Assembly (NCBI GenBank): GCA_036172245.1
Contig: JAYWIR010000004.1
Coordinates: 3,720,001 to 3,784,000, forward strand
Direction: 5' to 3'
Origin: Raillietiella orientalis
Taxonomy: Eukaryota
DNA: 64,000 bases
The translations under genes were made by a program, and so were the position numbers. Shown here piece after piece: positions 17,901 to 59,789 of this stretch. The notes under the pieces are model-generated. The model saw only the letters and a program-made list of their open reading frames with translations, was not told the origin of the DNA and made no database searches. The first letter of the stretch is position 1. Every line of letters begins with the position of its first letter.

Positions 17901-20900
17901 GCAAGGAATGAAACGCAGTCAGACATTTTGGATCATTTCGTGACAGCTGTACCAGGAGGCATGACATCTTTCGCGGCTACATCCAGAAGGCAAAGTATTG
18001 ACGATGGGTGATGGACATCCAAGGGACTCCCAGATTGGAGTCGTTGTCACAACCTAATCTCGTCCTGAGAAGAGGGGACCGCGTCATCATACTGGAGACG
18101 TGCTGTCCACTCCAAGACACACCAGCAGCATTCGAGGAGGCTTACAGGGGGAAACAGGGCGAATATCGGACTGGGGCCGCGCACTCTCCCTCGCCCTCTC
18201 AGCAGCCCAAGCGCCAGTTCGTGCGAATGGTCGTCGGGTCAGTGGGAGCTCGGGATCCACAGAACCACGACGTCCTGAAGGGGATGGAAACCCCTTCAGC
18301 TCTGAGGGAACGGAGGCAGCACCTTGAATGAAGAGGTCTCGGATCCTTCATCGACTTCATGCTCCGTCCATCTTCTGGCGCCCGTGCAGAGTTGCGAAAG
18401 TTTCTGTGTTCGCGGAGAAAACCCGCTGGTGTCATCCGCGAGGACCAAGTGTTGGAAGCGTGCACCAGCCCCATGACTGCCACAGTCATCCGAGTAGCGT
18501 TGCCCGATCGAAGTCGCTTCAATGACCCATCAGCGGTTCGGGCTTGCTACCGTGTGGATCGACGTACGTCTTTGAGGCGAGCTTGCGTCTACTGGCAGGA
18601 TCAGCCAGCAAGACATCAATGCCGTCCAGAATATGTCCACTAGGCACACCCTCCAGGTGACTCAGCTCGGACCTCCGTCGTCGAGTCTCCTGGTCCCCAT
18701 TCTAATGTGAAGAACTCTGTTGCATGTCTGGAGGCCATCCATCCTATGGCTTTCCCTTGTTTTGAATTGTGGATGCTTTTGGTCGAGACTGACGCATCAC
18801 GGAATCGGAGCTTGGAAGAGAAGGGGAGATGAAAGGAAAATGATGAGGATTTTGGAAAGATATGGTAAGAAATTCAATCATAGTAGCCTTCGGAAAACAA
18901 CACGTACGTCTCTCGAGCAGTGGATGGCACTTCTTTAGCTTTCACAGTGGCACAATGACGACTGGAGTGGTGGCAGACAAACAAATGGAACAAATCTTCA
19001 TCTTGCAGATTTCCAGCAAGCGTGCACATGCTACTTGTGGTAAGGAAGGCCTCACTCAACAGCAGAGGAGACCCAGCAGTAGAGATCAGAGGCTATAGGG
19101 AAAAGGTGAATCCGTTGGGCAAAGCTCAAGAACCGAAGAGCTAAGCAAGCTTTGTGGAGTATGAAGCGATCACCAGAATAAAACTGTTCAAAAAATAGAA
19201 AATTCGTCGTCATGGGTTTTGTTTCACTGTGCAGAAATATTCTTCTTGTTCCGGATAACAGTTTCCGTGGAGGCATCAAATTGGGGAGAACAGTAGATGA
19301 ACTCTTGAACACGAGCACGAAATTAGAAGGATTGTTCTCACTCGATAGTTTGAGAAGTTGGACTTCATTGGAAGTTCGCTGGCTGCGTGTGGCTCTAGAT
19401 GGTGTGAACGTGAACCACTGATTTTGCATGCTCGATTCAAGGACCACGAGGTTCCCTTAAGAATTTGTTGGTGCGTTCAAGAAAGAAAAAGCTGTTCACT
19501 CAGCACTGTTCGTGATACAGATGATAGGCAAAAAGAATTATTGCGACAACTTACCTCATCCTTTTGCCTGAGTCACAAGAGCATGGTTTGCTTCGCATCT
19601 TGTGTGCTGATCGGAACAACCTTCGGAATGTGAAGGAAGTTCGAGTTGGCTCGCAAGAACGGTTTGGTTTTCCCCTCCCTCAAATTAAAAAAAAAAAAAA
19701 CTTCAAAGCTCTGATATCCAATTTCAAGTCCAGGGCATGTCTTCGGAAATGGGTTTGTTTCAGCACCGAGTCCGTTTTCATTAAGCAAACTTTTAAAAGC
19801 AAACTCGAGAACTTAATTTAAAAAACATCCTCAATTTTCAGAATTTCATTTATTCGGAATTTTTTCTTCCGTGGCGCTATGAATGAATGAGGCATTTTTT
19901 CCGCAATCTGCGTAAAGTCCTTGAGGAAGATTCCAGATCAGATCAAAGCAGGGTCAAAGTGTTTTTCAGAAGTCAAGATATTGAAATCAGGCACTATTGC
20001 TGTTTCTCACCCGGATGCACCGAGGCGTTTATTTCTAAATTATCCAGGAACAGAGTTCCCGGACAAAGGACACAGAAGAAACGAAGAGGAGGATTCCCGA
20101 CACGCAGGTCGGTAAACCGAAAGTCCGGAACGGGAGGGAGGGGACCACAAATACACATATAAAAAATAGAAATAAAGATATGGGGAGGGTAGGGGACAGG
20201 GGACTTTGGGTTGGCCGTTCCTTTCCTTCACAACCGGCTATGGATGCCGGTGATCTCGCTCCTAACGTCTTCTGGAAGATGGGTCCACTCGGCAGCCGAC
20301 GCCATGTTCACGCCGGCTATTCCGGTGGCCTGACGGCGAATCGCCAGCTTCTCAGCTCTCGGTGGGCCTTGTCGATGGCGCGGATGCAACAGACCGTTGT
20401 GATGACAGCACCTAAGGACAGGCCGCCTGGTGTGAAGAAGCGGCGCATCAAGTCTTTTGCGGTGTCCCCCTGGTGCAGGAGAGCTGAGGCCAGTCTCTGC
20501 CACAGTCCTTGGAGGACACCGTAGTCCAAGAGCAGGTGCGGGAGCGTTTCCACGTCCCCGCACCGTTTACAGTTCGGGGAGACAACTCCCCCGGAAACAC
20601 GGTTCGTGCACTGGTTGGAGTGAAAACCCCAATGCAACCAGCATGATGACGTCCTGTTCCAGCTCAAAGGAAACACAGAAGTGTTCAAACAGGAGGGAGG
20701 GACCACAAGTTCTTCGGGGGACACACTCAAATGTTCGCTCTACCGAGAGTCCCTTCGGGATGTCGCGAGGCGTAGCGGCGTCGGCCAGCTCGCAAGTCCT
20801 CCAGCCGCCTATGGGTCGGGTTGTTCCTGCGATGGTGCAGGCGACCTCTAACCTCGCCAGTAGGCAGCTGTCATCGGCAATATTGCTGTCGTCATGCTGC

Positions 20901-23900
20901 ATAGACCCACTTGCCTGCACATATGAAGTCACGGCGGTCAGGTCAAGCGACCAATGAAACTCATTATCAAGTCAAGCGAGGCATTACCTTTCCCCAAATT
21001 GGGGTGATCCAGGCGATTCTTTAAGCATGGGGAGGAACCACGTGCCTCCATGGAAACGCAGCTTTAAATTAGTTTTGAACAGAATCCTGTAGCTAATAAA
21101 AGACGAGCTGTTCCGCCTTGTTCTTGAAACTCATTCATTAGTCTTTCTGTGTTCTTCTGCCGTTATTATAAACTGTTTAGCGTTAATCAAACTGAACGAG
21201 AAAAAAGCACCTGTAGGTAATTAGCATCGTATTAATTTAGGACGTGAAGGCTTGACAACAAAAAGTCCCAGCTGATGTGATTTCCACTTGCTATTTGCAG
21301 CTGAATCCACATACGTTATCTTGAAAATGGGGTTTCTGATGGAAGATCCAGAAGAAGAAGGCAAAACTTGTAATTTTCCCAAGCTGGAAACACGAGCATG
21401 AGTGTTCAGTCACCACCGAAGGAATGGGTTCAAATGCAACCTTGCATCCTTATTGAGCTGTTTTGCGTTTGGTCCCTCTGGAAGAAGGAGGCATAGGAGA
21501 GACAGCGCGTTACATAGACTTGTTGTCGTTCTAGATACATGTAAGAAGAGTCCCAGAGGCGACAAGCTGCGGAACAAAGTTCGAAGCATCTCTCCCTCTG
21601 ACAGGCCAAAGAATCTCCCAGTTTTCAATCAGGTCGGCTGCTCCTTCACTTCTTGCAAGACTGTAAGGGCTGGAGTTCCAAGCAAGTAATCTGTTTTCTT
21701 CGAATGAGAGCGCAAGTTAGTTAGGTATTAGTGAATTGGTAAGCTATCTGGTGCACTGATAACATTACGTTTGGTGATTTCGTAAATGATTTAGTAATAC
21801 ATTTGAACAGGAAGCTGACAAGTGACGGACAAGCTCTCATGTTATGACTTCAGTAACCGCCCTGGAAAAATGGTACATCGATCTAGTCACACAGTGGAAC
21901 TCTAAAAGCACATAAATGCAATTCCCTGATGCCGTAGTACCTAAAGGTAGCAGAGGATTTTTCAGTCTGCAGAGAGGGAGAGGCTTCATGGAGGGTCTGA
22001 TCTGAAATGACGTAGATCGATCGATATGAAATCAAGGTTTTAGCTAAAATCAGGTTCAATTCCAAAGTCTGCAACTCTTTTCAATGAGCAAAGAGCATCC
22101 ACGAAGTCAGCAATTCTCAAGGACTCCGCACACAGCCTGATGCTCCCGATTTTTCAATTTGTTTTTGGAAGTTTTCGGAGGATTCTCGTTCGCATCTTCG
22201 GAAACAACGTCGTACTTTGAATCAAACTTCAAAGATCTGCCTCAAGAGAAGGCACGCAAAGTTGCCGATGCATCATTCCATTTTGCCTCACCTCCTTCCT
22301 TCTCAACCCGTTCTTCACATAGTCCTCGTTAGCTAAACAGCTGATTTCATCGGATTTTCATACACTAAATCATGCTGGCATGTCTCTGAAAGATTATATT
22401 AAATGTCTCAAGAGCAATTTGCTCTCGTAAAACTGTCGCTTACTCTCAAAATCCTGCTAAAATCCACGAGATTTATCATTCTTATATGCTTCGTTTTCAT
22501 CCAAAGAATAAGAATGGCGAATTTTTCATGTCAGTGCATGTCTTTTGGAGTTACCGTATTGGCCAGAGTGGGAGCCACAGGACAATGTAGACTATGCCCC
22601 TGGAATCTTCGGGGGACAAGTAGGAGGGAAAACGACTTCCTGCGGAGAAATCGGACCTCATTTTCTCATATAAATCATTATTGTAAATACTGATATTAAA
22701 GTACAGTAATGTTACTCTTTAAATACTAGTACATGACACATAATATAAATGCATTCTTCAGTATTAAATTTGACGAGTGACTGTTCAAACATCATCTAGT
22801 AGAAACTCACAAATCTTTCTGAATGCAAGATACTCCGCATCTCAATTTTTAATGCGGAAACTTGGGAATGTACTGGAATATTCCTGAATAGTGTTCCCAG
22901 TGCTCTTTTTGATATTTTTTTTTTGGTGAGGAATTGAAAGACGAAATTATTTATCCATTCTGAAAAATCGAAAGACCCAGTAATTTTGGTGCACTCATTT
23001 CTTAGGACACGTTGGGGAACATCTGAAGAAATGGCACTAGGTGTAGCCAAAACTCATCTGGATGAGAGCAACTGCTATCGTTATCGTCAGAAGACCATCC
23101 AAATCAGAGTCAAACAGAATCCAGCAGATGTTGAGTCATCTACAAAGGATGGTGTATTTGTTGGTCATCTAATCTTTAGTAATTCACAGGAGCAGCGCTC
23201 GGTGAGGAGCCATCTTTACCAACATGACAGTTCAAATGAGAATGTGCGAATGGAGTTTCCCGTTGCAAAAAGAACAAGAACTTTGCAACTTTAACAAGTT
23301 CTCCTTAGCTTGCCAGATTCAGCTGCTCCTCGGAATAATTGATCCCGACAAGCCATAGAAATAATAATTTTTAATAAAACACAAATAGGGAAGAAACCAA
23401 TTTTATCTGCAGCATCTTATTCCATCTTCAAGATTTGTTCCGTAAAAAGTCCGAGTTTCTGGAATCACTGCTAATGCATCCTTGAGGGGTGATGGAGAAA
23501 TCAGTCTAAAGTCTCTCAACAGGTTAGAAGCCATGTTTTCTGGAACGCTGATGCTCACACTCTTGGGATATGTTAGTGAACCAGTGGGCCAACTTTGGTA
23601 GACAAAACCGGCACTGCAGCATGAACCGAATGGCTCTGGGCTATGATGAGAGAGAGATGCGACACGCTCGCCAGATCTCAGGGGAGGTGATGGCTGCTTT
23701 GGACGGCAGGATTGTGTCAACCATGGAAGTCTCAGTCTTCCAAGGAGTGCAAGACAGCTCTCCTGCCCGTGCACCCGACCCTATGGCGAGTGGTACTCTG
23801 GCGCCGGGGGACGACATCCAACCGCAAGGGTACTTGCTCATCTGAGACTGCACTATTTTGATTGAAGAAATGAGCAGTTTGAGAAAAGGTTTATCCAGAA

Positions 23901-31100: not shown

Positions 31101-34100
31101 CCGTTCATTTATGAAAAATAAATCCAACACTACAAAAGTGTCAGAACTCGTCTGACGTTAGTCTACCGGGAACCCTCAACGTGAGCAGCACGTAAAAACA
31201 GGGGGGGGAGGAGATGGAAGATGGAGAGCAGAAACTAGGAATGAATAAATAAATGAGGGAGAAGCAGGACTGCTCTCTCGGTACCGGATGCTTTTGAGAG
31301 AACCAGCACGTGGACTACGACGGGGCGTGCGAGCTCAAGAACTTTGCGTGCGCGCGCAGTCACATCCTCCTTGGGAACCCTCCAGGTTCCAGCTCGGACA
31401 CGGGGTCACTTTATAGCAGTTTCGTAAAAGCGATTGAGGGCAACGAACCTTCTGCTTTGGGAGTGATGCTCCCCTATCATGCTGGTGCCCGGCGCCAAGG
31501 CTCGCACTCTACCGAATGGGGTCAGCATCAGTGACATCATGGTACGCACCGCCACTTCTCGGAGAATGTGGAGCACCCACCCAGCTCTACAGGGTTTGTG
31601 CTGGAGGGACTCGATTGGCTCGCAGTACGCACATCTCGTGGGGATGCACCCTACCCCCCTCCCCTAAGGGAGCAGCAAAGTATACTTCGTTACGAAGGAG
31701 ATCCAGCGTGCTAGTAGAACTGCTGCATGCTGGCCGATTCCTGAGAAATGCTCCTACCAGCGCCTAGCAACTCATAGGGAACCGAGAACTTCCAAAGGGT
31801 TCCTCGGGAATTCCCAGCGCTCCTCTCATCCTTGCAACTCTCCATGCCTCGCAGACGACTTGGGCTGTGCTCCAATGAGCAGTTTCCTAGGTGACCATCC
31901 ACGAGAGGGGGATTTTTCTTTTTTTTTGAAGTTTAAGAGTTGCTTTCCTCTCGTAGAAGGAAGAAGTTTCCAGGGTATATGCAAAAATGGTGGGATACGC
32001 CTCAGAAGAAGCTACTCCTTTCATCGAGGATCTCCCATGAGTTAGGACCATTTCCAGGTGACCCTTGCACCAAGCGAGGGAACTTTTGCTTTGGCTGGAT
32101 CGCCGTTCTGTTCGCGGCTTCCTTCTGTCAGACTTGCTTGCTTAGTGGGAGACAGTGACTCGTGTCGCACCCAACCTTTCATCAGATTCGCTCAGAAAAA
32201 GCCACTGGACCTCAGGCTCATTCCACTACGGAGTAGGGGAAAGAGTATGCCCCCTAAACTGGAAGGTGGCTCCGATAAGGGCGATCTCCAGAAAAACTGC
32301 CGCGAGCTCTGCAACTTCTCCACGAGCAAGCGGTTCTGGAGAAGGGTGTCTGCAGTTCCACCAAGTGCGATGGCGTAGGGTCCAAAACAGGAAGCAGGTG
32401 TTCAGGCCACACCTTAGGGCTGGACTGCCCGCTCTAGAACCGCATGACTTAGAGGCACGTTCGAGAAGAGACGGAACAAGAGGAAGAGGGGATCTCGAGG
32501 GCATTCCACTTTGTTGATCTTTTGGGCATAAGGATCCTGCCATCCCTTGTTCACCCCTTTCTCTGTGCCTCAATCGGATCTCTCTTGGCGAGGGAATCTG
32601 CAGACTACACGTCTTGGATCGATACTTCCCAGTCGTCTCTCCACACTGGGATGTGGCTGCAATGGCAAGTGATCCTCATCCACTTCGAACTCAGGAGGTT
32701 TTTCTATACGCCTAGTGGATGACTAGCCGATTCGTTCCGTATACATCGCGCGCATTGCGCCTGAACCAGACAACGGAGCGTCCCGTCAGCGGTCACATCC
32801 TACCCACGTATAGTCGCGGCACTTCCGACAGTTCCTCTCAACAGCTCGTCGTTTCGAGGAGGCCAAGAACCTAACGAGTCGAGGCGCTCGGCAATTCGCC
32901 TCTCTTCCACCTGGTGCTCCTGAATGATGAAGAAGCGCTTCAAATGAGCGAGAGACAACCACGATAATCATTTGATTACTTTTCTGGAGGAACATGTCAG
33001 GACGAAGATAAGAGCCCACTCCAGGGATCGGCTTACTTCGAGCAGTCAGCTCCCACGCACCTCTTGTTTCCCCTTAGGCACACTCCAACCAATCCTCATG
33101 GATGTACAGATGGAAATCCAGTGGCTTCGCCGCAAGCAATGGCTTCGTACACGCGGCAATGCCTTCATCCCGCACCTTTCACTGCAGGAACGGTAGGCAG
33201 TCGCGTCGGAAGCCATGTGACTGCGCGCGCGGTGCCAAGCGTTGAGGGTTCAAATCTCCACGGGGAGGATCAATGCCAGAGAAATGGGGGTGCATCGTGG
33301 GTTTTGAGCCCTCCCCCCCCCAGGATGACTCTTGTTGGCTTGTGGGTTTCGGGTGCGGCCCTGGTGGACACCCGGTCACGCCGGGGCGTTTATTTATAAA
33401 AAAATAAACACACGTCTGCGGCAGGACTTTTGATCCTGTCACGTTACTTATAACTACGAGAAGGAACCCTCAGGGAACTGGCACGCAGACCAGCGGGGTT
33501 CATCTCGGCAGCACAGGGGGAGGGGAGACAAACAAAAAGAAAAAAACAAGACAGAAAACATAGTCAAAAACATGGGGGGCTTCGGGAAGGGATCACCGTG
33601 TTCTGGAGAGTATCCACTGCATCCTTGTAAAGATGCAGGCAAGTTCCTGTTTTATGGTTCCCAGATGGGGTCATCTTGATGCTATCCTCACGAAGAGGAC
33701 AGCAAAATAGATGACGTTCCTGTCGTTTTGGCCCTTCTGGTGTTGCTCCATGATGCCATGATCCCGCATAGGCAGCGCAGCGCTGCTAGGGATGCGGCCG
33801 GCGTGAGGGCGTCGTGCAGGCAGAGGCGCTTCTGAATGTCTCTTGGGTTGCTCTCGGAGTTCCGCAGGGACGCGGCAAAGCGTTCCTACAGGGAGCAGGG
33901 AGCCCCACAATCCATGAGCAGGTGAGGGAGGGACTCTCTTTCTCGGTACCTGCTGCAGTTGGGGCTTACACTCCCCCGGGTCCAATGGTGTAGGCGGTCG
34001 TTGAACAGGCAACAGCATCAATGCCGACTCCTGCCACTTCAAAGGGAGGATGCAACACTGGTGGAAGCCGGAAGGCAGATGCCCCGTTGACCGTCGAGAT

Positions 34101-37100
34101 TAAAAGTTGTACCGAAGTCCTTCAAAGAATCAAGGAGTCAGTTCTCCCCGGCTGTGAAAATAAAACCGCTCCCCCCCCTCCCCTCACCCAGAGGGGACTC
34201 TCCATCATGTACCATGGAGCAGGTTGATATCCTCTTTCAGGGTTCGCCACTTTAGAGTGTCAAGAAGCGCGCTCCTTGTTGCTCCTATCCAGAGGAGCAA
34301 CCAGGAGCAGATCCATCCGAGGAAGAAATTTCACGCGCGGATATTTTTTCCAGGTTCCCTTCGAAGGAGGAACGAGGAGTGACACCTCCGAGGGAGTCCT
34401 CCGGAGGGAGTAGGGAGGAGGTTCCAATTCGAGGTTCCCTTCGGAGACAACCAGGGCAAGGGTTTCCTTCGGCATTCCCCACAGAGCGTGAGAGAAGGAA
34501 TGGAATCCTTCTCCGGAGCCTTCCTGAATTCATGGGGTGGTCCCTATGGGATTTCCCCTTAATTTGAAGAGTTCCACGCACCCTCTGGTGGCACGGACAG
34601 AGCTAAAGAGCTCCGTGAGCCTCCCTTAAGGAGGCGGACGGTTCTTCAGTACTAGGTGAACCCCAAAAAGAAAATCCACCCAAAGAAAAGCAGGAAGAAA
34701 AGCAACAAAACCAGAACAAAACAGACAGAACAAATCCCATCATACGAACATTTCATCCTTCCTCCTTTGCCTCAGTGCTTCCCTCTTTAAGGGACGCAAG
34801 GGACAGCGTAATCCGGGAAGGTGAGAAGTCAAATGCATAGAAGCAAAGGAGGAAATATTGGGGGCGTGGACAACTCGGGAAGCTGACGGACTCTGCGACC
34901 TCGAGTGCGATACCTCCACGGACTCGTACGCTGGGGAGAGCTGTTCGACATCCCTCTGGAGGAGGTGGAGTGGCGCTTAGCGTGGTGGAGCAGTGGCGTC
35001 GTCCACCCTCAACCGGCAAGAGTCGGCGTTGCTTGTTTCATGGGGAGATCCTGTGCAAAGCGCGCCTCCACCACTGCACACGGGAAGGCTGGAAGCTCAG
35101 TGCGACCGGTGTAGGAAGAAGGAAACCCTCCCCCACCTGCTGTTCGATTATGCTGCCGTCCAACCCCTTTGGGATCGTTTCGTGGCGATCCTAGGTATCC
35201 CGGCAGGCGGACCCAGGGACATTTGCAAACATCTCTTCGTGCCTGATGCCACACTGCCTCCAGCCGCGTCCCTCGCAGTTTTCTACTGTCTGCGAGGGAT
35301 CATTGCGGCCTGGAACGCCAGAAGAAGAAGCCAAAAGGGCAGGAATGCCATCCACTGGACACGGATCTTTCAGAAGACCGCTTCGAAACGTCTCCACCCG
35401 AGATACGAACGGAAGTTGCCGGCATCCTGAATAGGATGCAGAGAACGCCGGGAAGCGTACTGTGATCCCTTCCTCGGCTCCCTTCTTATGGTGTGAAGTT
35501 TTCCCTCCCCTGTTTCATGTGTTTCTTTTTTTTGTTTTTGTTTTCCCTTCCCGCACGCTGCCGAAGTGGACGTCGCCAGTCTGAGCACTGGTCTTTGGTG
35601 GTTTCATCGCACGTGGTAGAACCCTTGGTTCTACCACACTAATATATTTTTGTTACCTTAAGTAAGCAACGCACCGGCATAACCGGGTGATAATAATCAT
35701 CCGAACAGGAATGGTCTTTCCCTTTTGTTCGGGATGCTAGGAGAACAGGAAGGGGATTCAGCAGGACAAAGGGAGCAAACCGAAGGTCACAAACAGGATG
35801 ATAATCTCCGCTGGCGATGAGCTGGTACAGATCCTATGGAACCCAGCACAAGACACGGTTTTACCCTGGTCAGCGTGCTTCTCAATTGGGAGTGTTATGC
35901 TACGCTGCGCCGGAGGGTCTGGATATCGATCGCCGCACCGAATATGTAGTCGCTGCCAACAGTACGAGGGTTCTCCTCTAACCAACGTCCATCTCGACTT
36001 CATCTGCCATGAGGCCTCCCACTCCGAGTCGCCAGCCATTCTACTGAATCCTCCCCACATCTCCCGAGATAGATTATCGTTACATTCCATATCAGCTGGA
36101 GAAGTTATAATCCCCTTCCTTACTACGGAACGTAAAGTTGGACGAGAGGATTCCAACACTGTCTGGTCCCTTGAAGTTTAAAAGAGCAATAAATGGACGG
36201 GCCCCGTCTGTCAACTTAACGAGGTCCAGGGATTCCTTCTAGGCCTTCCAGAAAATATTCATTTGATGCTCGATTGGACAGACGAAGGCACTTCTTCACC
36301 ACCGGCCTAATATTGTTTCCTGAAAGGAGATGAGGTCGATTTTGGCAACCAGTCTCCTTTAAGGAAAATCCAAGTCTTTGTAAATGTAACAGGCTGAGGG
36401 AAGAGAATATCTTTTCCGCGTTGCTCTTAAGCCAAGTAGATAGAACTTTATCTGGAAGAAGAATCAACAATGACCTCGACCTTAGCCACTGTTTTCTCGC
36501 TTTACCGGCTCGGACTGAAACAATTCCAGCTCCAGCGCTTCTACAAATGTTTGTGGGCTTCACCAGGCTGGAGACAAGTGAAGCTGATAGTGAAGACGCA
36601 GAGCTAGGTGTACGGCACCACTTCGGAGTCCTGCGGCCAATTGCCGAGTAGCTTACTTTCGGGAGTTCATGGAGAGTTCCACGGATGGATCAGATAATGT
36701 TGACCCATCCGCAGAATCTGACGAAAACAGGAAGCCATCAGCATAAGTAAATAGCTAGTCCCTACCAAATGAGGCTCGTAGCCTGAGCAGGTTGGACCCC
36801 ATCGCGATATTAAAGTAAGGAGCTTATGGATCACTCTTGCTTAATTTTCCCCCAAATCTTTATATTCCTCATCGATTGCTTCTTGTACGAGACCAGCACA
36901 GACGCATTTCCATACGAGTTTGTGATGCTTTCGATGAGGTGGTACCAAACTCGTTCGCAAGATTTGTGAAATGCGATCCTGGTATCGTCAAATCGGATCT
37001 AAAGAATGAAAATTTTCTCTAGGACAGAGTGAAAAAGGGATAAACCCGTTCTGTGAAGTGCCTTTAATAATATGCTTCGAAGTTCCATTTCCTGACCAAG

Positions 37101-40100
37101 AGCAGCTGATTCTCTGATCCTCAAGCTGGTCCAGCTGTCCTCGAGAGCAACTTTTCGAGGTCATCGTGAGCAAGCCATCGGAAGCAACTTCCAACCGAAC
37201 TAATGAGCCCTTCACTACTAGCAAAAGCATCTCTTCAAATCAAGAATGATCTGGGTCCAGATGGGCTGCCTGCAGAGTTTCATGACCTTTTTGTAACAGA
37301 TCTGGCAGTGCTGGTGTCAAAATTACCACTGCTGATGCGGGAGGCAGACCAAGTGCCTGCCTACTTCAGTCAGTCAGGATTCGTGTCGTACACAAAAAAG
37401 GAGACCCGCACTGCCTGGGCAGCTGGCATTTGAACACGTCTGTAAACGCGAACGTTAAGTTGCTATTTAGAGCGTCAAATAAATTACGCAAAGATGGTGC
37501 GGTTCATCATCGGAGGACACACCAATGCTGTACGGGACTGAAGTATGGATGCTAAAATTCCCTTGCCCACACCTGGTTCAGGGTGTAGAAGAGGAAGATA
37601 ATTCCACCCTCAAGGGATCTCGATCTATGTCGAAAATCTAGCGCAGGATGCTACCACAGAATGGAGGACTGCCTGCTGCAGTCGATCTGCAAAAGACCCT
37701 CAGCTAGATCGATCAGGGGCTCTTTCTTAAGCCTCTAGAACGGCTCAGCTCGCTAAGCATCCTCCTGAACTTGTTATCTCTATGGAGCAAAGAGTCAAGT
37801 TTTCCGCTGATCTGCTCACCCGAGGCACTGAAGCTAGACGGGGCAATCAGACAAGAAGACAGTCAAAGTCCCAATGCTGTTCAGCCTGTTTTTAGGACGT
37901 CTATTTCTCACGACAAGTCTTAAGCAGTGGTCTATGATGACCACTCGTTTCTCCTGTTGCTTATACAGAGCCCAGCAGCCGCACTTGGAACGTTGATTGA
38001 GGTTCTCTCCAGGAGTGCTGCCGTCCAGATGAATAGATCGTGGTGTCCTCGACGAAGAACAGTCTGAGTTCAGTGTTGTCTCCGATCACCACGATGAACA
38101 CCGGACGTTGGGAATCCTCGCGAGCAAGGGTGGTCCCTGATTGGGGGCCCACATGGTTCTCTCTCTCCGAGAGGGATCTGGTCAGCTTTCTTGGAGAAAG
38201 AATAGTGAGTTCGGGTTTCCTTTCACAACGGCAGATCCATTTTGGCCGGAAGGGCAGCATGCTGGAGCACTTTCGCTGCTCCCATTTAGCGTCTCGTCGT
38301 TTGATGCTTCTCTTCTTCTCCTGAGTGTGCTGACGAGTTACAGGGATGATATGGGGCACCACCAAATCCCAAGACCGCGAGCCCAGACCCGATCCCCTCT
38401 CGAAGATGCCGACTGGAATTTGTTTTTTGCTAAGACACGAACGAGTTTTTTGCTAAACACGAACAAAGTTTTCCTCTCCTCGCCATTGAGGTGCTGAAGG
38501 GAAATAACGAGTAGATATTTCGCCCAACAGAACAAGAGTAGACATGTGGATCCTCCTGGAAAAATTAGCTTTTCTCAAGTGTCATTAGAATTGAGATTCG
38601 CTCCTTTGAAAAACTCCTTCGGAGCGACCTTGGATAGCAGGAGTCTGCTTCCTGAGGCACGTGACGAGACCATTCGAGATGCCATGAGATTACGTCTGTC
38701 AGAGGGAAGAGTTGGATCCTCCTGCAGCGTGAGGGCTGACCTATCGGATCACTAGGATCAAAAGTGCATCAATGAAGAATACAATGGAGAGAGAGGCAGC
38801 TCACTCACAGAGGCATGCCCGCGAAATCCTGCAAAGGTGGATTGTCTTCCTTGGAATTTCTGGAGAAAAATTGAAGATCCAAGGTTTCCTGAAAAATATC
38901 CTCATACTTGCTTCAAGCTACCAGCACAATGGCATTTTGCTGATGCGATGAGTGGGATTTTTCCCACCCAGCGTATTAGCCGAAGCCGATCTCCACCGTG
39001 CATTCGCGGGGAGATTTCCAAGGATTCTGGATTCCCAAGAGATTGCGCACTGTCGGAAACCTCATGCACGTCTGCAATACAGAAAGAATACAAAAGAGGT
39101 CAAATACAAAAGAGGCTATAGTAGAGCTGGGATCTCATCACAAAGGCTCTCCAACCATCCAACGAGGCGCTCTGGGACCATATGAGAAGAATGTTCACCT
39201 CTTCAAGCTTGCTAGCTGTATCCTTGCTGACGATTTTCTGCCTCTTAAGAGCAACGGTGGCTTCCAAAACGGAAGAGGAAGCTCGATTCGAAAGCAGTTC
39301 GAAGCCATCAATGCTGTCAAGAACCTTCTCGAAGATGAAGGAAGCTTTGGGAATCGTCGTTCCTTAATCCCTTGATCCAGATGTCTGCCAGCTGCTTGCT
39401 GTCCATATCTTCATGGTATTCGTGACGTTTCTTCTTCTTTGCAATTCATGACGCTGCTCAAACAATGCTTTTCTGCCGCTCAAGAGCAGCCGAGGATTCT
39501 AAGACGAAAGAAGAGGAAGAACTAAGCCGTCCGAGGAAGCTGGTCACGATCAATATGCGTACTGGGATGAAGTCATTCAAACGGGAACCCTCGATCAGAA
39601 GGAGGAACCTCAGGACAATTGTGGACTGATCAGATCGTACGTAACCCCTGATGGAGACCCAATTCCCCTTCTCCCGTCTCCGCACGGTACAGATCACGTT
39701 CAACACCGTTAGGCCACACCCATTTATTCCCCCTTTCTTCCACATCTTCCGTTTCTCATCCAGTCGTGTCCCCGGTGAGGTTCGCACCTTTTCTTTTCAA
39801 ACCAGAAAGTGGTCCTGGGTCCAGCGAGCGATCAAACACTTCCCGATCTGCCCCGGCCCTACGCCGATAGCGTGAGAGAGAGTTCGCGGCTCCTTCCAGC
39901 ATCGCATGAAGCAGAAACTTCTGTTGGGCGACCCCCAGGTCAGCTGGCGATTCGATGCGCCAGAGCGGATCGATGCGGCAAACGTGAAAACCCCTCGCAA
40001 CGTGCGTCTATCGACGGGCAGCTCCGGTTTTTGGGCGGCGGCCGAGCAACGGAAGGGTGAGCTTCCATGGGAGTAACCGAACGAGCGCGCGAAGAGGAGC

Positions 40101-43100
40101 TGCTGTCTCGGCCCCGCCAACTCGACGTCGAACTCCACGAACAGAGATGGAAGGAACCTCGAGGGCGGTGTGCTGCCCGAGTGGGGCGCGTTCCTTCGGG
40201 TCGAGCTGCGTGGGAAGTGGGCTACCAAGTGAAGGTGGAGAGGAAGCGGGGTCGAACTTTGTTGATGAGCCCCATCCCGGGAGCGCCGGTTCTCCTGCTG
40301 AAGAGATTTAGAATTTGAGGGCAGCATGATTGACAGGAAAGCTTTTATCCGGTGACTCCGGGACGTTTACTTAAAAAATAAACCATAGTTCAGTGTTCAG
40401 AATACAAGAGATTCTTCCCCATTCCAAACAAAACAAAACAAAAAACATGAGTTGATTGGGGGTGACCACCAGCACAAAGGCGAGCTTCTAAAAAAGCGGG
40501 GAGCGAAGGGAGGGAACAATCATAAACGAAAAATGTCGGGAGGTGGGGGACAGGGAGGTCTTTGGATTCAGTTGTTCCTTTCTTCCTAGAAGAGGCTGTG
40601 TGTGATGGCAATCTCACTGAAGAATTCTGCGAGATGAGACCACCTTGCTTCTGTCTTCATGAGGGCTGCTACTATGCTGGTGGCCTCTCTGCGTCGCAAA
40701 ACTGGCTCAAACACATGGCGGACTATCACCATAGAGATTGTTGCTATCACAGCGCTCTTCTTCCGACTCCGGTGAGGAAGCGTCTCAGAAAATCCAGAGC
40801 AGTGTCCTGTGATCAACGGAGCGCCGAAGTGAGTCTCCGATACATATCCTCCAGGGCACTGCAGTCCAACAAAAGGTGCGGGAGCGATCCAATCGCCCCG
40901 CATCTAGAACAGTTCGGGGAGACAACTCTCCCGGAAACCAGTGTCTGCTCTGATTGCACTGGAGTCTCCACTGCAATCCCCAATGCAGAAGAGGAAGAAC
41001 ACCCCGTTTCCAACGGAGGTGTCCGCACACAAGGAAGGGACCACGAGTTCAGGACACACCGAGCACGTCACTCCACCTAAGGAGTCTCTTTTCCCGGAAA
41101 CGAGGAATGGCGGCGTTCACCAACTCGCTCGTCTTGCAGCCGTCCAGGAGTTTTTCCACTCCTGCAATGTTGCAGGAAAACTCCTATATCCGGTTGGCTG
41201 CCGATTTTGTTTGTTTTGAGGGCACAAAGTGCTCCGGCAAGGGATGTGATGGCCATCCGGAACCACTGAGTCCAATCCTGAAGGACATCTCCCAGCTGTT
41301 TTCCTAGGAGATTCTGCAGTGATCGCAGTTCCTCTGAGCGCACTTCCAGAGTGGCAACCCAGGACTCCAATGTCTCCTGCCTCCAGGCGTTCCAGTTTTG
41401 GTAATGGCAGGAGATCTATGGTTAATTAACCAAAAGTAAGGGTAGATGCCTCAGAAGGTAGTCAAATCCAGTCCTCCTATGTGGGCTGCTCAGCAGCATC
41501 GAAAGAAGTCCTGAGCTTCCAGCGCATCGCCAGAGGATGAGGTGTGCCGGAGCACACCAATGGGATGACCACAATTTTTCACAAAGAATCAAAAGTCGGA
41601 ACTGCATCTGTAGTCCGATCTTCGGATGAGACCTGCAGCGGATTTGCAGCGGATGGTCAGGATGACCAAGCCAGCATCATGCGACGGCGCCACCAAGTCT
41701 TTCAGTCGGATCCGGGACATATGAGCGCCCCACAAAATTCTTCTTATTAGGCGCAGATCCCGGAACTTCAGGGGTCAACAGGAAGAAGGATGTGGAAATA
41801 GTGAAAACTCTTCCTCCATTCTGTCACAGACTCGGTAACTTATTTGTGTGAAATGAATGAGACGGCCTGACGATTCCATAGACTCGCCGAGGCCTGCCTC
41901 CTGTTTGTCACTCAGCTTTGGTCGCGTGTTCTTCAACACGTCGCTCGCCTGGTCGGCGCGTTGTTCGTGTGACTCGAACAGAGTTGAGGAGGATATCAGT
42001 ACAGTACTTTACCTAATGGAAAAAAAGATGAAACTTATGAGATCTTATGCTGAACCAAGACAACGATGTGAATCAATGGAAATTTGCATCCAAATGACGC
42101 GAAGAAGCAGGATGCATCTTCATGTTTCAAAGATAGCTTGTTCTCTTAGTGTTCTTATTTTCTCATCATCTTTAGATTGGCATCTTATCAAAGCAGAATC
42201 CGATGTTTTTTTCTACTGAAACACTGAGCTGCATATTCTCTGCCATTAATCTTCATCATTATGCCGCAATGAGTGATCTCTTTGAGCTGCTCCATCATGC
42301 TGATGGTCTTAGTAGAATACTGGGTAGGAATGTTGTTGCTAGAAGCCCATTATTTCTTATGCTCATCGCAGTTGCGTTTCTGCAGTGATAGGCGCTCCTA
42401 TCAGAATGCTGATGAGGAAGCAAAGGAAACTGAATGTTGGCTCATTCAGGATCTTCGAGTTGAAAGCATAGCCACGAAGTATTGAAAACCTTCATCGGAA
42501 TCATAAGAGATCAGAGCCATTTTGCTGTTTCCTTGGATTTTTCCTACATTTTCTGATTTTTGATCTTTCAATGGTGCGGCTGCAAGCGGAATCTCATTCT
42601 TTCTTACGTCTAATCACTCTCGATACGGGAGAAGGCCCTTGGAACGTCAATCAGCTTAATAGCATCCAAGTTGGCTGCCATTTTAAAGTTCCTACTAAAC
42701 TATCCGCGAAGATATCACGGGAACTCTTCAAAATGGAGATGTTGGCTCAGGATCTCTGACGTGCCCTCAGAGAGAGCGAGGGAGAAAGAGAGAAAAGGAA
42801 GCTTCCTTCAGGACTCATGTGCCTCTGAGATCGCATCGCAAAGCGCAGTTCCAGACTGGGGTCTGTTGCAATTGGAAGGGGAGACGTGGCTACCAGTACT
42901 GCGCATTTCTGCGTAGCCCTAGAGACTCATCCGCTTGTATGGACGTCGTGAGCATTGGCCGTCTGATTAACGAGATGTGGACGTGTTCCTTCTCGGATGA
43001 CTTAAGGTGTAGGAGGCTGCGAGGGGGGTTACTGAATTGAAAGTGTGAAATTAATATAGCTCAACTGTGCAAGTGGCTTGATGAAATGAAAGAACGACCC

Positions 43101-48603: not shown

Positions 48604-48642
48604 CACCTCGGAATCGGCACAATTGGTGCCGATTCCGAGGTG
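48604..48642. repeat. Perfect 17-bp inverted repeat with 5-nt spacer
   Basis: cacctcggaatcggcac-aattg-gtgccgattccgaggtg. Confidence 0.95.
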
Positions 48643-48689
48643 TTTCCCCTATTGTCTTGAGGCGCTCTGAAGCACCCGCAGTCAGATGA

Positions 48690-49150: not shown

Positions 49151-49299
49151 AGGTGAGCTAGAGGAGACGGGATCATATAAGGATTACAAGAAGGAGGTAC
49201 GAAGTCGTCTGAAGCAGAAAAAGAGGCGATACACTGAGACGTCTTGACGGGAGACCACAGGCATTCTCCGTGAGTGAACGATTATGCAAGAATAAAAGA

Positions 49300-50100: not shown

Positions 50101-50149
50101 CCGAGGAATTCCTGCTCCGGAGGAGAGCTCTGATACTGGGGACAGTTGT

Positions 50150-53500: not shown

Positions 53501-53612
53501 ATGACACGAAGTCCGTTTGACATCTTTCGCTCCAGAAGGCACAGGAACTGACCTCAGTTCTTGTCGATCTGGACCCATGCTCTCCATAGGACTAGGAACT
53601 CCTAACTTTGGT

Positions 53613-55900
53613 TTATCATCCGGTCACGCCGGGACGTTTATTATAGAAAATAAACATCCATGTGAAGAGTCATCGGCCCTACATTGTCCGAAAATGCTCA
53701 GAACCTACCGAATAACCGGCACGAAGGCCGACGGGGTTCGCCTCGGAGGAGGAGGGGGGAGAGGAGGGGCAAACAAAAATAAAAATAAAATAAAAAATCG
53801 ATGAAAACAACTCTGAGGGGCACGGGATGGGATCTCTGTCCGCTGGATGGCGTCCTCTGCATCCTTTCCAGGATGCCGGCAAGTTCCACCCGAGTGCACT
53901 CCAGGTGGGGACATCTTGCTGCCGTCCTCATGAAGCGCAGGCCGAAGCAGATGGCGTCCCTATCGCGCCGTCCTCCTATCGCGTAGCTCCAGGTCGCCAC
54001 AATCCCTCGTAGGTAGCAGCAAAGAGCTGCTAGGGATGCGGCAGGCGAAAGGGCATCGCGCACGAAGAGGAGTTTCATCACGTCCCTGGGGTTGTCCAAT
54101 CGTGCATCAAGGGCCGTTGCGTAACGCAATCACAGGGGCAAGAGGGCACGACAAGCTGGTGCGTGAACTGGGATTCCCGTTCCCCGTGCCTGCAACCGTT
54201 GGGGTCCATAGCATCCCGGGTCCGGTGGGAGCGGCGGGAGTTGCACGAAAGACCCCAGTGCAACAGCGGAAGTGCCGACTCCTGCCACTTCAAGGGGAGG
54301 GCTCGGTTGTTCTTCAGCGCTGGGCCTGTCACTCGAGGTCTTTCTGTGGGATTGTCACCTCAGCGCAATAGTCCTTTCGGTGGGACACTTGGGATCGCAG
54401 TGTCCATGATCTGGCCCGTGGTCCAACCTAATTCCTTCGCTCTTCCTCCGATCTCACATCGGACCTCCCATTCGGCCGGCTGGTTGCTGCCCAGGTGCTG
54501 AGGGAGAGCAGTGCCGTGGCTAGGTGCCGAGGTTCTTTGTGTCCATGCACACATGGTGGGCTGCATGATGGCGTCCTGCAGCGAGCGGTTGTTGTAAAAG
54601 GAGTGCAGCAGTCGCTGCCGCATCTCTGGGCTCGCTCCATTCTTGGCCCATGTGCGAACGGTTTCCTGCAACCAAGCATTATCGTTCGCGAATGGGCAGA
54701 AGATACTTTTGTTGGTGCTGGTCAGCTTGACCAGCCGCCGGAGCTCCAGTCCGAAGCGGGACACGTTGCGTCTGCGCCTCTGTGCCAGCAACGAATAGAG
54801 TCCCGCATAGCCGGTGGTTCGCTTGACCAGGTACCGTGCGGGCTCGCACCAGTTCGTGCTCCGAAGCTTCTCTACTACGGCAAGTGTTCTCCACTGCAGC
54901 TGCCTCTCCAGGCTCTTCAGCGTTGGGAGGCCGAGGCCTCTGTCGCGACGCGGAGAGCGGAAGTTCTTCAGGCGGACTCGGGGTCTCGAGGAATTTGCAG
55001 TGATGATTCGGGCAGGTGTGCACTGCTCGCGCACGCGAGGACGCTGGTCGCCGACGCCTGGTGCATCGTGTTCAGGACATCCACCATCGCTTCCCGGTGA
55101 AACGTGCCGCTCCGCTGACAAAGCGAGCCCTCCGCTATGAAGGAAAGGCCCGATGCCTGGGAGATGCCTGCTCCCTATCCGCTCCATGAGGGAAGAAAAG
55201 GGAGAGGGAACTAAGTTGGAGCGACAAATCACCTGGAGGCGCTTGTACTCCTGGTTGCATTGTGTTCCTGCTGAGGTGGAAGAGAGGAGATCCTCCCTCC
55301 TTTCCCACTGTGCATGACTGTGAGCCCCTCCTCCCTTCCGTCTCTCCCGCCCATACCATCCTCATGCTCTGCTCCTTCCTACCATGCATAACCCGCGCTT
55401 TCCGCCTCAGGGGAAATCGCTCCCGGCACGAGTTTCCAGACTCCTGCGCGATACTGTAAAAGCGGCAATTGAAGCTTTTCAGGAAAAGTGCCGCTCCACA
55501 GGTGGTTTCTCTAGCTACCGGCGAGAACCAGGTCACAGGTTCCACTGCTAACTCTGGTGCCGCGCCGCACACCAGCAGCTGAGGTGGAAGAATGGGGAGC
55601 GGCAATAGAGTAAAAACCAGGGGTAATCGGCCGAGAGCAAGTTCCATCTTATCTCCTTCTGTCTACCATCACCAAGGAAAAGAAAATCCCTTAGCAAGTG
55701 AGTCCTTACTCTCACAAAAAGGTTCGGACAGAGGACATCGTGGGTTGAGCCCTAAGAGGTCACTGTTCGGGATGGTCTGAGGGAAATGGAGACAGGAATG
55801 GATAAGGTGTGGTACGGATATGCGGGAGAACCTCCTTTGAAGTTCACTAATTTCGCCAGTGGATCCAAACGAAATGAGAAGCGGATCCGAGGAAAAGATC
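53613..55900 (-). mobile_element. LINE 3' portion (RT remnant to 3' end)
   Basis: RVRLKNFRSPRRDRGLGLP, KLRSTNWCEPA, AWLQET, LPLKWQES, LAGILERMQ are collinear with the full ORF2. Terminal hairpin at 53620-53632. Confidence 0.85.
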
Positions 55901-56420
55901 AGGAAAGGACTTTGCTTCATGCAACTCCCGGATGCATGAGATCTACTTCATCTCTCTTCCCGAACGATTTTCCTCTCCAGTCTCCCGGAATCATTCCTGT
56001 ACCAGAAAGCTGGAGGCCCCAGCCGCAAGAGCACCGAAAGTAGCGGAGGAGGTGCTCAGGCCGCGCACCCGGAAAGAACCGCTTGCAGCTGAACATGGAG
56101 GAGTTGCCACGGAAGAATCGCTTTTTGCCCATCCAGCGCGCACGAATGACGGCAGCGGTGTGCGTCGGAAAGCTCCGAGAGATCCTCTGTTCACTTCGAA
56201 TCGTCGGTGCCCCTCCTGGACCCTCTACCCGATCAGCGCCTTTTTGTTAAATGAGTCCAATCTCTGAGGGCCCTTCGACCTGCGGGCTGCGAGGTCCCGC
56301 ATATCGAATCGTCCCCGCAGCTGTTGCTGGACTGTGATGCCCTTCAAGAATCCCGTGGCGTAGGCTGGCTTCATTGCTCCTGCACCCGGAGGGCATCTAC
56401 TCTGCAGCAACCTTCCGCAG
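55900..56420 (-). mobile_element. Possible LINE ORF1 remnant
   Basis: FRRTPLPSFVRAGW, then MFSCKRF...RCSCG after a frameshift: gag-like knuckle pattern. Confidence 0.3.
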
Positions 56421-56439
56421 CATGTTAGGATGTTGAGCT

Positions 56440-56776
56440 CAATGACAGATGGTCACGCTCATGGCAGTCACCTGCATGAGGACGGAGGCAAGGTGACCCC
56501 ATTTGAAAGAAGTCATCAGGGAAATTCTCTACACCTTGCGCTGATTCTGAGAAGGAGGGAGGTCACCAGCCAAAAGATCCCTGACCTCATCCTTCCTTTT
56601 CTCTTTTTTTTATTTATTAATTGATTGCCCCTTCCCTCCGGAACTTCCTCAGTTACTGATCTACGTGTCGGTGACCCCTCTTCATGAGCTTCTTCTCTTT
56701 CCCTTTGGGAAGTCGGTCCCCAACTTGTGCATTTTTTTCTCTCCCTTGATGAATGCCCTGGATCGACCGGCTGTAA
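56440..56776 (+). mobile_element. Short decayed LINE 3' end
   Basis: MRTEAR*PHLKEVIREI..LR*F* matches the ORF2 terminus MTSVAEWAYLPEDVRSEITGIHSRF. The UTR matches that of the 20004-20230 copy (ctgat-ctacgt-gtcgg) and ends gaatgccctgg-atcga-ccgg-ctgtaa. Confidence 0.7.
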
Positions 56777-59780: not shown

Positions 59781-59789
59781 TGCAGGCCC

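What the first reader, a model, noticed from the sequence alone, without database searches (positions are those of the whole stretch)
20004..56776. Divergent LINEs share a terminal CCGG-N5-CCGG hairpin instead of a poly(A) tail
Seen (element sense strand): aataaacgcctcgg-tgcat-ccgggtgagaa (20004-20033), aataaacgccccgg-cgtga-ccgggtg (33369-33394), gcaacgcaccgg-cataa-ccgggtgataata (35666-35695), gtaaacgtcccgg-agtca-ccggataaaa (40343-40370), aataaacgtcccgg-cgtga-ccggatgataa (53613-53642), atgaatgccctgg-atcga-ccggctgtaa (56749-56776). The stem and 5-nt loop length are constant while the loop sequence varies. In three copies a TSD starts within ~10 nt, which fixes this as the true 3' end. Known: L2/CR1-type LINEs use 3' stem-loops for RT recognition, whereas L1-type elements typically end in poly(A). 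Inference: this APE-RT-CCHC lineage uses a conserved structured 3' handle for target-primed reverse transcription or 3'-end formation, potentially allowing cross-mobilisation between families.
Basis: partly seen in the sequence, partly recalled or inferred. Interest (0 to 1): 0.75.

Follow-up and report, generated by a model that had tools for sequence, protein, structure and literature searches.

The report
Shared hairpin tail of tail-less LINEs
Several only distantly related copies of a LINE-type jumping gene all end in the same small folded RNA tail instead of a poly(A) stretch, which is a new example of a known way these elements mark their own RNA for copying.

Summary
All six quoted motifs are at the stated coordinates. 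Exact CCGG-N5-CCGG occurs 6 times against 0.42 expected. Four of these, plus two one-mismatch versions, lie 422-522 nt downstream of a LINE C-terminal Cys/His motif. Similarity among copies stops within about 7-9 nt after the hairpin. No copy runs into poly(A). One copy has a 13/14 target-site duplication starting 7 nt after the hairpin.

The copies belong to at least five families with 33-57% amino-acid identity. It includes a second hairpin about 95 nt upstream, with a 6-bp stem, 4 of 6 pairs compensated, and a CUNNGY loop. The terminal hairpin is really a 7-bp bulged stem with only one compensated pair.

The best reading is a stringent-type 3' tail of an L1-like lineage. That is a known kind, already described for L1-clade elements in monocots and green algae (PMC3472496). 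Function is inferred, not shown. No relatives were found outside the window. Interest is modest.

The parts
20004..20875 (-). E1: 5'-truncated LINE copy (C-terminal ORF2 plus a 3' UTR of about 313 nt), 91% identical to E7. It ends ...CCGGGTGAGAA.
   Evidence: blastn 20166-20875 against 64000-63288 at 91%; tblastn to P0001; sequence
20876..20889 (-). E1 5' target-site duplication; its partner is 19990-20003 (13 of 14 identical)
20008..20027 (-). E1 terminal hairpin SL3 (bulged 7-bp stem, 5-nt loop)
   Evidence: core pair probability 0.34-0.93
20096..20113 (-). E1 upstream hairpin SL0 (stem plus CUGCGU loop)
   Evidence: pair probability about 0.9
33365..34051 (-). E2: LINE 3' fragment (decayed Cys/His motif, 3' UTR, tail). 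SL3 is 33369-33388 and SL0 is 33477-33494.
34751..35695 (+). E3: LINE 3' fragment. SL0 is 35575-35592 and SL3 is 35670-35689. A possible 11/12 TSD lies at 34739-34750 and 35696-35707.
40342..41789 (-). E4: LINE 3' half (RT C-terminal part, CCHC, UTR). SL3 is 40346-40365. SL0 is 40468-40485 and has one broken pair.
53611..55010 (-). E5: LINE 3' half. SL3 is 53617-53636 and SL0 is 53715-53732.
56303..56777 (+). X: decayed LINE 3' remnant (remains of the ..LLLDC motif). SL0 is 56655-56672. SL3 is 56754-56773, with two C-to-T changes at CpG sites and one broken pair.
   Evidence: leave-one-out profile E 5.7e-06
60490..64000 (+). E7: most complete copy. The APE-like ORF (60490-61509) and the RT/CCHC ORF (61605-63665) are in different frames. 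Its 3' tail lies beyond the window end.
58587..59488 (+). E6: inverted 99.3% duplicate of part of E5; the tail is not present
37203..38942 (+). E8: further diverged RT-bearing copy. No tail was found where one would be expected; the place is occupied by another repeat (39283-39686).

Best explanation
The six sites are the 3' termini of copies from at least five diverged families of one L1-like, APE-type non-LTR retrotransposon lineage.

The families share a homologous 3' tail of about 200 nt, made of these parts in order:
- a T-rich tract, then a C-rich tract;
- SL0, a hairpin with a 6-bp compensated stem and a CUNNGY hexaloop;
- a variable region;
- an AU-rich hairpin that contains AAUAAA or a variant;
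- SL3, the terminal hairpin, CG[Y]-n-CCGG-N5-CCGG-[R]UG;
- 7-9 nt such as UGA(U/G)AA, and then the target-site duplication.

Inferred mechanism: this is a stringent-type tail. ORF2 protein binds the structured tail of its own RNA. SL0, with a conserved loop and a free stem, is the more likely specific contact. SL3, with a conserved stem and a free loop, fixes or protects the very end. Target-primed reverse transcription then starts in the last few nucleotides after SL3, so new copies carry no poly(A).

Shown here: position, conservation, end of homology, one good TSD, and pairing on the sense strand. Inferred: protein binding and the start site of reverse transcription.
For: - Motif excess: 6 observed against 0.42 expected.
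- All 5 copies in the window whose 3' ends are present, plus remnant X, carry the motif at a fixed distance (422-522 nt) from the Cys/His motif.
- The families share only 33-57% amino-acid identity. Even so, a profile built from any five tails finds the sixth (E 1e-08, 2e-23, 4e-17, 1e-09, 2e-20, 6e-06) and nothing else in 64 kb.
- Conservation comes in islands. SL0 scores 0.59-0.64 and the terminal motif 0.58-0.70, against 0.13-0.45 between them and 0.31 or less beyond the end.
- SL0: 94.4% of cells paired, and 4 of 6 pairs changed on both sides. Only 2 of 500 shuffles reach the score, and slid controls give 17-53% paired.
- SL3: 95.2% paired; the CG:3/UA:2 pair is compensated; slid controls give 26-48%.
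- 18 of the 78 cells are G-U pairs, which would be A-C mismatches on the other strand. The fold therefore fits the sense RNA.
- E1 has a 13/14 TSD starting 7 nt after SL3.
- No A run longer than 4 follows any hairpin.
- The RT is non-LTR type and nearest to human L1 ORF2p (E 4e-18, against R2 at 2.6e-14). A rough tree places it with all zf-RVT-bearing rows.
- Precedent: conserved 3' hairpins in L1-clade LINEs (PMC3472496), and ORF2 binding of tail stem-loops (PMC4176376).
Against: - There are only six copies, all from one 64-kb window and related by descent. Covariation counts on so few rows are weak.
- SL3's covariation is not distinguishable from shuffles (80 of 500). Its conservation could be a sequence constraint rather than a structural one.
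- In the roughly 120-150 nt context, SL3's core is predicted with probability 0.69 or more in 4 of 6 copies, but 0.16 in E5 and 0 in X. SL0 is at 0.75 or more in 4 of 6 and near 0 in E4 and E5.
- The ACG before SL3 can pair either upstream, in the AU-rich hairpin, or downstream.
- No copy in the window is shown to be intact or active. E7 has a frame change, and its tail is off the window.
- No relatives were found elsewhere to test the model: 0 of 40 fetched loci.
- No SINE with this tail was seen.
Confidence: 0.6

Rival explanations
1. The conserved end is mainly a 3'-end processing signal. AAUAAA (or AGUAAA) together with a downstream hairpin sets the cleavage site about 25 nt later. Conservation would then reflect transcript maturation, not recognition by the reverse transcriptase. 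This reading can coexist with the main one.
For: AAUAAA is present in 3 of 6 copies and AGUAAA in 1 of 6, directly before the hairpin. In E1 the element ends 25 nt after AAUAAA, which is within the usual 10-30 nt cleavage distance (established knowledge). Vertebrate L1 3' UTRs likewise have poly-T and poly-C tracts and end in AATAAA (PMC5381506, passages read).
Against: If cleavage and polyadenylation were all, copies primed on the poly(A) tail should carry A tails; none of the six does. E3 and X lack a canonical signal. SL0, about 95 nt upstream, is not explained by this reading.
Confidence: 0.2
2. The shared tail is inherited or exchanged sequence with no present function. It would be either slow decay from a common ancestor or a 3' module swapped between families by template switching.
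For: The whole tail of about 200 nt is homologous, not just the hairpin. All copies are old and decayed (stops and frameshifts).
Against: Conservation is in islands that coincide with stems and one loop, with background-level identity in between. A recent swap would give even, high identity. Nucleotide identity in the islands (0.6-0.7) stands beside only 33-57% amino-acid identity in the ORFs. SL0 has compensated pairs.
Confidence: 0.12
3. The motifs are terminal inverted repeats of a DNA transposon. The sites at 33369-33394 and 35666-35695 face each other 2.3 kb apart, and those at 53613 and 56776 face each other 3.1 kb apart. Failing that, the pattern is a chance palindrome.
For: Two pairs of sites are in inverted orientation.
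Against: Each site follows its own LINE C-terminal coding remnant on the same strand at a fixed distance. E1 and E4 are solo sites. E1 and E3 each have their own TSD candidates. No transposase family was found in 99 ORFs. Chance is excluded.
Confidence: 0.03

Closest known systems
Stringent-type L1-clade LINEs: the monocot LINE1-1_ZM group and Chlamydomonas L1-1_CR (Ohshima 2012, PMC3472496; main text read, supplements not seen)
   Same: These are L1-like ORF2 elements whose last roughly 45-80 nt are far more conserved than the rest. They have a hairpin with compensatory changes and conserved loop or flank bases. Green-algal L1 families often lack (A)n: the paper's table gives 8 of 15 with other repeats such as (TAA)n and 5 of 15 with none.
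   Different: There is no sequence relation to those tails that I could test, because the supplements with the sequences were not seen. Here there are two conserved hairpins about 95 nt apart. The terminal one has a fixed stem and a free loop. No partner SINE was seen, and there is no poly(A); LINE1-1_ZM and L1-1_CR end in poly(A) according to the paper.
L2-clade UnaL2 (eel) and ZfL2-1/ZfL2-2 (zebrafish) 3' tails (PMC4176376, abstract and Discussion read; PMC1636434, listing only)
   Same: A 3'-terminal stem-loop is required in cis. The stem is recognised generally and the loop specifically by a region of ORF2. A single bulged base in the UnaL2 stem matters, and SL3 here also has a single bulge.
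   Different: The clade is different (L2 against L1-like). Function here is untested. The terminal loop varies between families, whereas the upstream loop is the conserved one. The short terminal repeats of UnaL2 (recalled, not checked) have no clear counterpart here.
L1 of non-mammalian vertebrates (Boissinot and Sookdeo 2016, PMC5381506; passages read)
   Same: The 3' UTR has poly-T and C-rich pyrimidine tracts and an AATAAA near the end. Many diverged families coexist in one genome.
   Different: According to the paper those L1s all end in AATAAA followed by a poly(A) tail. Here a hairpin follows AATAAA and there is no tail. CpG observed/expected here is 0.72-0.81, which does not look like a vertebrate genome.
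Human L1 ORF2p (PDB 8c8j, 8sxt and others)
   Same: This is the best solved relative of the RT (E 4e-18, query residues 23-293).
   Different: Similarity is confined to the RT core. The C-terminal 300 residues have no detectable relative. Human L1 is the relaxed, poly(A)-dependent type.

Membership tests
Stringent-type LINE 3' tail (RT-recognition stem-loop) | The 3'-terminal sequence is conserved among diverged LINE families well above the rest of the element | tested here: met
   Islands score 0.58-0.70 against 0.13-0.45 for the adjacent UTR. ORFs share 33-57% amino-acid identity. Leave-one-out profile hits have E 6e-06 to 2e-23.
Stringent-type LINE 3' tail (RT-recognition stem-loop) | A stem-loop supported by compensatory changes | tested here: met
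   SL0 has 4 of 6 pairs compensated and 94% of cells paired, with 2 of 500 shuffles as good. SL3 has only 1 of 7 pairs compensated, with 80 of 500 shuffles as good, so it is inconclusive on its own.
Stringent-type LINE 3' tail (RT-recognition stem-loop) | The tail is required in cis for retrotransposition and is bound by the cognate ORF2 protein | not testable with these tools
   This needs retrotransposition and binding assays.
Stringent-type LINE 3' tail (RT-recognition stem-loop) | A partner SINE shares the tail | tested here: inconclusive
   A profile search of the window finds only the six LINE-linked tails. 64 kb is too little to judge, and no genome is held.
L1 clade (including Tx1) of non-LTR retrotransposons | The RT groups with L1 rather than other clades | tested here: inconclusive
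   The best PDB hits are L1 ORF2p at 4e-18, against R2 at 2.6e-14. In a FastTree tree the query plus P0003 sit in a 15-row clade (support 99) that holds all zf-RVT rows. The tree has no curated clade references and has long branches. Atlas look-alikes are RVT_1 plus zf-RVT.
L1 clade (including Tx1) of non-LTR retrotransposons | An APE-type endonuclease lies N-terminal to the RT | tested here: inconclusive
   Exo_endo_phos scores E 0.044 and 14 bits, below the 24.5 cut-off, in ORF 60490-61509.
L1 clade (including Tx1) of non-LTR retrotransposons | A C-terminal Cys/His (CCHC) motif | tested here: met
   C-x2-C-x7-H-x4-C is present in E7 and E4, and present with the last Cys replaced by Tyr in E1 and E3. 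It is decayed in E2, E5 and X. The Pfam zf-RVT model itself gave no hit.
L1 clade (including Tx1) of non-LTR retrotransposons | A poly(A) tail at the 3' end (relaxed type) | tested here: not met
   No A run longer than 4 follows any of the six ends. In E1 the TSD starts 7 nt after the hairpin.
Any described RNA family in Rfam 15, including LINE 3' elements | A match to a covariance model | tested here: not met
   There were 0 matches at gathering score in the window. Permissive searches over four tails gave only chance-level miRNA or lncRNA hits with E 0.15 or more, and none on the tails themselves except a mir-973 hit at E 2.7.
DNA transposon with terminal inverted repeats | Paired inverted ends that flank a transposase or a non-LINE body, with a TSD | tested here: not met
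   Each end is tied to its own LINE coding remnant. Solo ends exist. No transposase family was found among 99 ORFs.

The most novel reading that the evidence does not exclude
The tail is an undescribed, ancient RNA module of a deep-branching and almost unsampled L1-related lineage. Among 1.84 billion cluster representatives, only two are above 50% identity to the RT. In this reading the polyadenylation signal is buried in one hairpin. A loop-conserved hairpin (SL0) is the ORF2p address tag. A stem-conserved, loop-variable terminal hairpin (SL3) sets the exact start of reverse transcription, which yields tail-less copies. The module would then be a natural system in which general (stem) and family-specific (loop) RNA recognition by an L1-like ORF2p can be separated.
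Probability: 0.25. Interest if true: 0.5.

Novelty: new member of a known kind. Interest (0 to 1): 0.32.

Why it matters
How LINE reverse transcriptases choose their template is well worked out for L2, R1 and R2-type elements. It is still debated for L1-type elements, whose best-studied members rely on poly(A). A tail-less L1-like lineage with two conserved hairpins adds a case to the idea that L1 relatives were ancestrally stringent (PMC3472496). It would also give concrete mutants to test. For genome annotation, the tail is a sharp marker for the 3' ends of these otherwise badly decayed elements. The effect on the field is incremental.

Tried and rejected
- Whole genome: none is held for this window.
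- Sequencing runs: none was listed for window 54001-64000, and no RNA holder was listed.
- Pattern scans for the motif. Viral contigs gave 2 loci, metagenome contigs 14 loci and genome contigs 24 loci. All 40 look bacterial or phage-like. None has LINE protein similarity, and the tail profile matches them only over the part the pattern itself selected.
- Protein searches. P0001 has one relative at 58% identity (P0003, an unnamed metagenome protein), and the rest are at 31% or less. Its C-terminal 307 residues found nothing. The exhaustive search gave 7 representatives at E 1e-30 or better. The named ones are vertebrate L1-like gene models at about 30-35% identity. The organism stays unknown. 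My guess of a coccidian was not supported by anything and was dropped (one search was a listing only).
- No tRNA or Rfam family was found in the window.
- Earlier-findings look-ups returned nothing.
- The careful or quick IQ-TREE run did not finish, so FastTree was used instead.
- MAFFT and RNAalifold on whole tails recovered only SL3, because the upstream part misaligns. SL0 was counted on a short gap-free alignment instead.
- The AU-rich hairpin (SL2) and the variable hairpin (SL1) appear in single-sequence folds. I could not align them reliably, so I make no covariation claim for them.
- TSD searches found nothing for E2, E5 and X.
- The TIR and chance readings were rejected (see rival explanations).
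- Structure prediction, complex prediction and fold search were not used.
Full report
**What is in the window**

The 64-kb window looks eukaryotic and gene-poor.
- Among 99 stop-to-stop ORFs of 110 aa or more, only one has a Pfam family above threshold. It is RVT_1 in ORF 61605-63665 (+), E 5e-23.
- The ORF just upstream (60490-61509, +) has a sub-threshold Exo_endo_phos match, E 0.044.
- There are no tRNA genes and no Rfam families.
- CpG observed/expected is 0.72-0.81 in the non-LINE parts.
- No genome is held for the window, and no sequencing run was listed.
- The organism is unknown.

**The LINE copies**

tblastn with the RT ORF (P0001), the APE-like ORF (P0002) and the one close database relative (P0003), together with self-blastn, defines these copies:

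| Copy | Strand | Coordinates | Note |
|---|---|---|---|
| E1 | - | 20004-20875 | 91% identical to E7 |
| E2 | - | about 33365-34051 | |
| E3 | + | about 34751-35695 | |
| E4 | - | 40342-41789 | |
| E5 | - | 53611-55010 | |
| E6 | + | 58587-59488 | inverted 99.3% duplicate of part of E5; no tail |
| E7 | + | 60490 to past 64000 | tail lies beyond the window |
| E8 | + | 37203-38942 | no tail found |
| X | + | about 56303-56777 | weak remnant |

Translated comparisons give 33-57% identity between families. Only E1 and E7 are close, at 83-91% in the translated comparison. "Divergent LINEs" is therefore correct.

**Check of the observation**

- Exact CCGG-N5-CCGG occurs 6 times against 0.42 expected, and 0 of 100 shuffles reach 6. 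Four of the six are reader sites.
- Two exact matches lie elsewhere, at 20313 and 40277.
- Every copy whose 3' end is present in the window (E1-E5, 5 of 5) has the motif, and so does X.
- The distance from the C-terminal Cys/His motif to the hairpin is 497, 522, 522, 496 and about 511 nt in E1-E5, and 422 nt in X.

**Is it the true 3' end, and is there no poly(A)?**

- In the six-way alignment the mean pairwise identity is 0.58-0.70 across the motif. It drops to 0.02-0.31 within 7-9 nt after it.
- E1 has a 13/14 target-site duplication (20889-20876 and 20003-19990). This puts the element's last bases 7 nt after the hairpin.
- E3 has an 11/12 candidate that starts 9 nt after the hairpin. I estimate about 0.3 such matches by chance.
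- For E4 I saw only a 7-nt match. Nothing was found for E2, E5 or X.
- The bases after the hairpin are short and A/U-rich, such as UGAGAA and UGAUAAUA. The longest A run is 4.
The absence of poly(A) is confirmed for all six.

**What is actually shared**

The shared unit is larger than the hairpin.
- A profile built from any five of the roughly 230-nt tail segments finds the sixth. The E-values are E1 1e-08, E2 2e-23, E3 4e-17, E4 1e-09, E5 2e-20 and X 6e-06. It finds nothing else in the window.
- Conservation comes in islands: a T-rich tract, a short segment about 95 nt before the end, and the terminal motif. Identity between the islands is 0.13-0.45.
The motif is more conserved than the adjacent UTR, and no copy continues into poly(A).

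- On a gap-free alignment, a 6-bp stem with a 6-nt loop is paired in 94.4% of 36 cells.
- 4 of 6 pairs change on both sides. Only 2 of 500 shuffles reach the covariation score.
- Sliding the partner by 1-3 columns gives 17-53% paired and at most 2 compensated pairs.
- The loop keeps C, U and G invariant (CUNNGY) while the stem varies.
- This is the classic pattern of a hairpin read by a protein through its loop.

**The terminal hairpin (SL3)**

- RNAalifold and direct counting give a 7-bp stem with a one-base bulge: CG[Y]-n-CCGG, a 5-nt loop, then CCGG-[R]UG.
- 95.2% of 42 cells are paired. One pair is compensated (C-G in three copies, U-A in two).
- Slid controls give 26-48% paired. However, 80 of 500 shuffles do as well, because the stem hardly varies.
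- The loop differs in 5 of 6 copies.
- The evidence for structure here is therefore pairing, a fixed loop length and a free loop, not covariation.

**Strand and stability**

- 18 of the 78 cells in the two helices are G-U pairs. On the opposite strand they would be A-C mismatches, so the folds fit the sense transcript.
- In single-sequence ensembles, SL3's core has probability 0.69 or more in 4 of 6 copies. It is 0.16 in E5 and 0 in X.
- SL0 has probability 0.75 or more in 4 of 6 copies and is near 0 in E4 and E5.
- These are old, mutated copies. X's changes in the motif are C-to-T changes at CpG sites.

**Other predicted hairpins**

- Between SL0 and SL3, single-sequence folds show a variable hairpin. 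They also show an AU-rich hairpin whose 3' arm is the AAUAAA-like stretch.
- I could not align these reliably and make no covariation claim for them.
- The ACG before SL3 can pair either way.

**Clade**

- The RT's best solved relatives are human L1 ORF2p (E 4e-18), then R2 proteins (2.6e-14 and weaker).
- Language-model look-alikes carry RVT_1 plus zf-RVT.
- A rough FastTree tree of 38 rows puts the query and P0003 in a 15-row clade (support 99). That clade holds all rows with zf-RVT and is apart from the rows with Exo_endo_phos_2. The tree has no curated clade references and many long branches, so "L1-like" is a working label.
- The lineage is barely sampled. Among 1.84 billion representatives, 7 reach E 1e-30. 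Only P0003 (57%) and a 132-aa fragment (59%) are above 50% identity.
- The C-terminal 307 residues find nothing.

**Search for relatives of the tail**

- Three pattern scans returned 2, 14 and 24 loci. All 40 are bacterial or phage background.
- None of the 40 has LINE protein similarity, and the tail profile matches only the selected motif in them.
- Everything said about conservation therefore rests on six copies in one window.

**Comparison with what is known**

- Ohshima 2012 (PMC3472496, main text read; supplements not seen) reports the following:
  - One monocot L1 lineage has a conserved last 45 nt (divergence 0.144, against 0.570 for whole elements).
  - That lineage has a hairpin with compensatory changes and conserved loop and flank bases.
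  - A Chlamydomonas L1 shares its tail with a SINE.
  - Of 15 green-algal L1 families, 8 end in repeats other than (A)n and 5 in none.
- Hayashi et al. 2014 (PMC4176376, abstract and Discussion read) show that zebrafish L2-clade ORF2 proteins bind their own tail stem-loop. The stem is read generally and the loop specifically. A bulge in the UnaL2 stem is needed.
- Boissinot and Sookdeo 2016 (PMC5381506, passages read) describe poly-T and poly-C tracts and a terminal AATAAA in non-mammalian vertebrate L1 3' UTRs, always followed by poly(A).
- The present tails combine that UTR layout with a stringent-type structured end and no tail.
- No Rfam family matches them.

**Mechanism I commit to**

The tail is a stringent-type 3' recognition module.
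- SL0 is the likelier specific contact for ORF2p.
- SL3 fixes the terminus.
- Reverse transcription starts in the last 7-9 nt, so copies are tail-less.
- Confidence is about 0.6.

AAUAAA sits about 25 nt before the end and may also direct cleavage of the transcript there. That rival (0.2) is compatible with the main reading, but alone it does not explain the lack of A tails or SL0.

Neutral inheritance or module exchange (0.12) fits the overall homology but not the island pattern or the compensated pairs. The TIR and chance readings are rejected.

It is not implied, because the differing SL3 loops could confer specificity as in ZfL2.

**Verdict**

This is a new member of a known kind of system. 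It is of moderate-to-low interest unless the genome shows it to be a large, active lineage with partner SINEs.

Noticed in passing
window 53876-54704 and 58659-59488; 56065-56296 and 57668-57899: There are two inverted duplications, at 99.3% and 100% identity, around 56.7-57.0 kb. Their centres differ by about 300 nt. This could be a recent inverted duplication or an assembly artefact. It copies part of LINE E5 without its tail.
   Followed up: partly
window 621-985 and 16260-16624: A direct repeat at 98.9% identity lies 15.6 kb apart. Weak RT-like similarity lies beside both copies (894-1122 and 16518-16622, E 0.011-0.41 to P0003).
   Followed up: no
window 8643-9046 and 39283-39686: An unclassified repeat at 94% identity, inverted. 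The second copy sits where the 3' UTR and tail of LINE E8 would be expected.
   Followed up: no
window 61509-61605 and 63663-63665; 20317-20521: In E7 the APE-like and RT ORFs are in different frames, and the ORF stops 5 codons after the Cys/His motif. The 91%-identical copy E1 reads on for 67 codons. The youngest-looking copy in the window is therefore not intact as assembled.
   Followed up: partly
window 20313-20325 and 63841-63853; 40277-40289: There are further CCGG-N5-CCGG-type palindromes that are not element ends. One lies inside the C-terminal coding tail of E1 and is kept as CTGG..CCGG in E7. Another lies about 60 nt beyond E4's end.
   Followed up: no
window 34758-34855: A hairpin-like palindrome of about 98 nt lies just inside E3's 5' end. 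It gives weak miRNA-precursor matches on both strands (E 0.15-3.1, far below gathering scores).
   Followed up: no
window 1-64000: CpG observed/expected is 0.72-0.81 in the non-LINE parts, and GC rises from about 0.42-0.46 to 0.55-0.62 in the LINE-rich right third. The LINE ORFs are much more GC-rich than their surroundings.
   Followed up: partly
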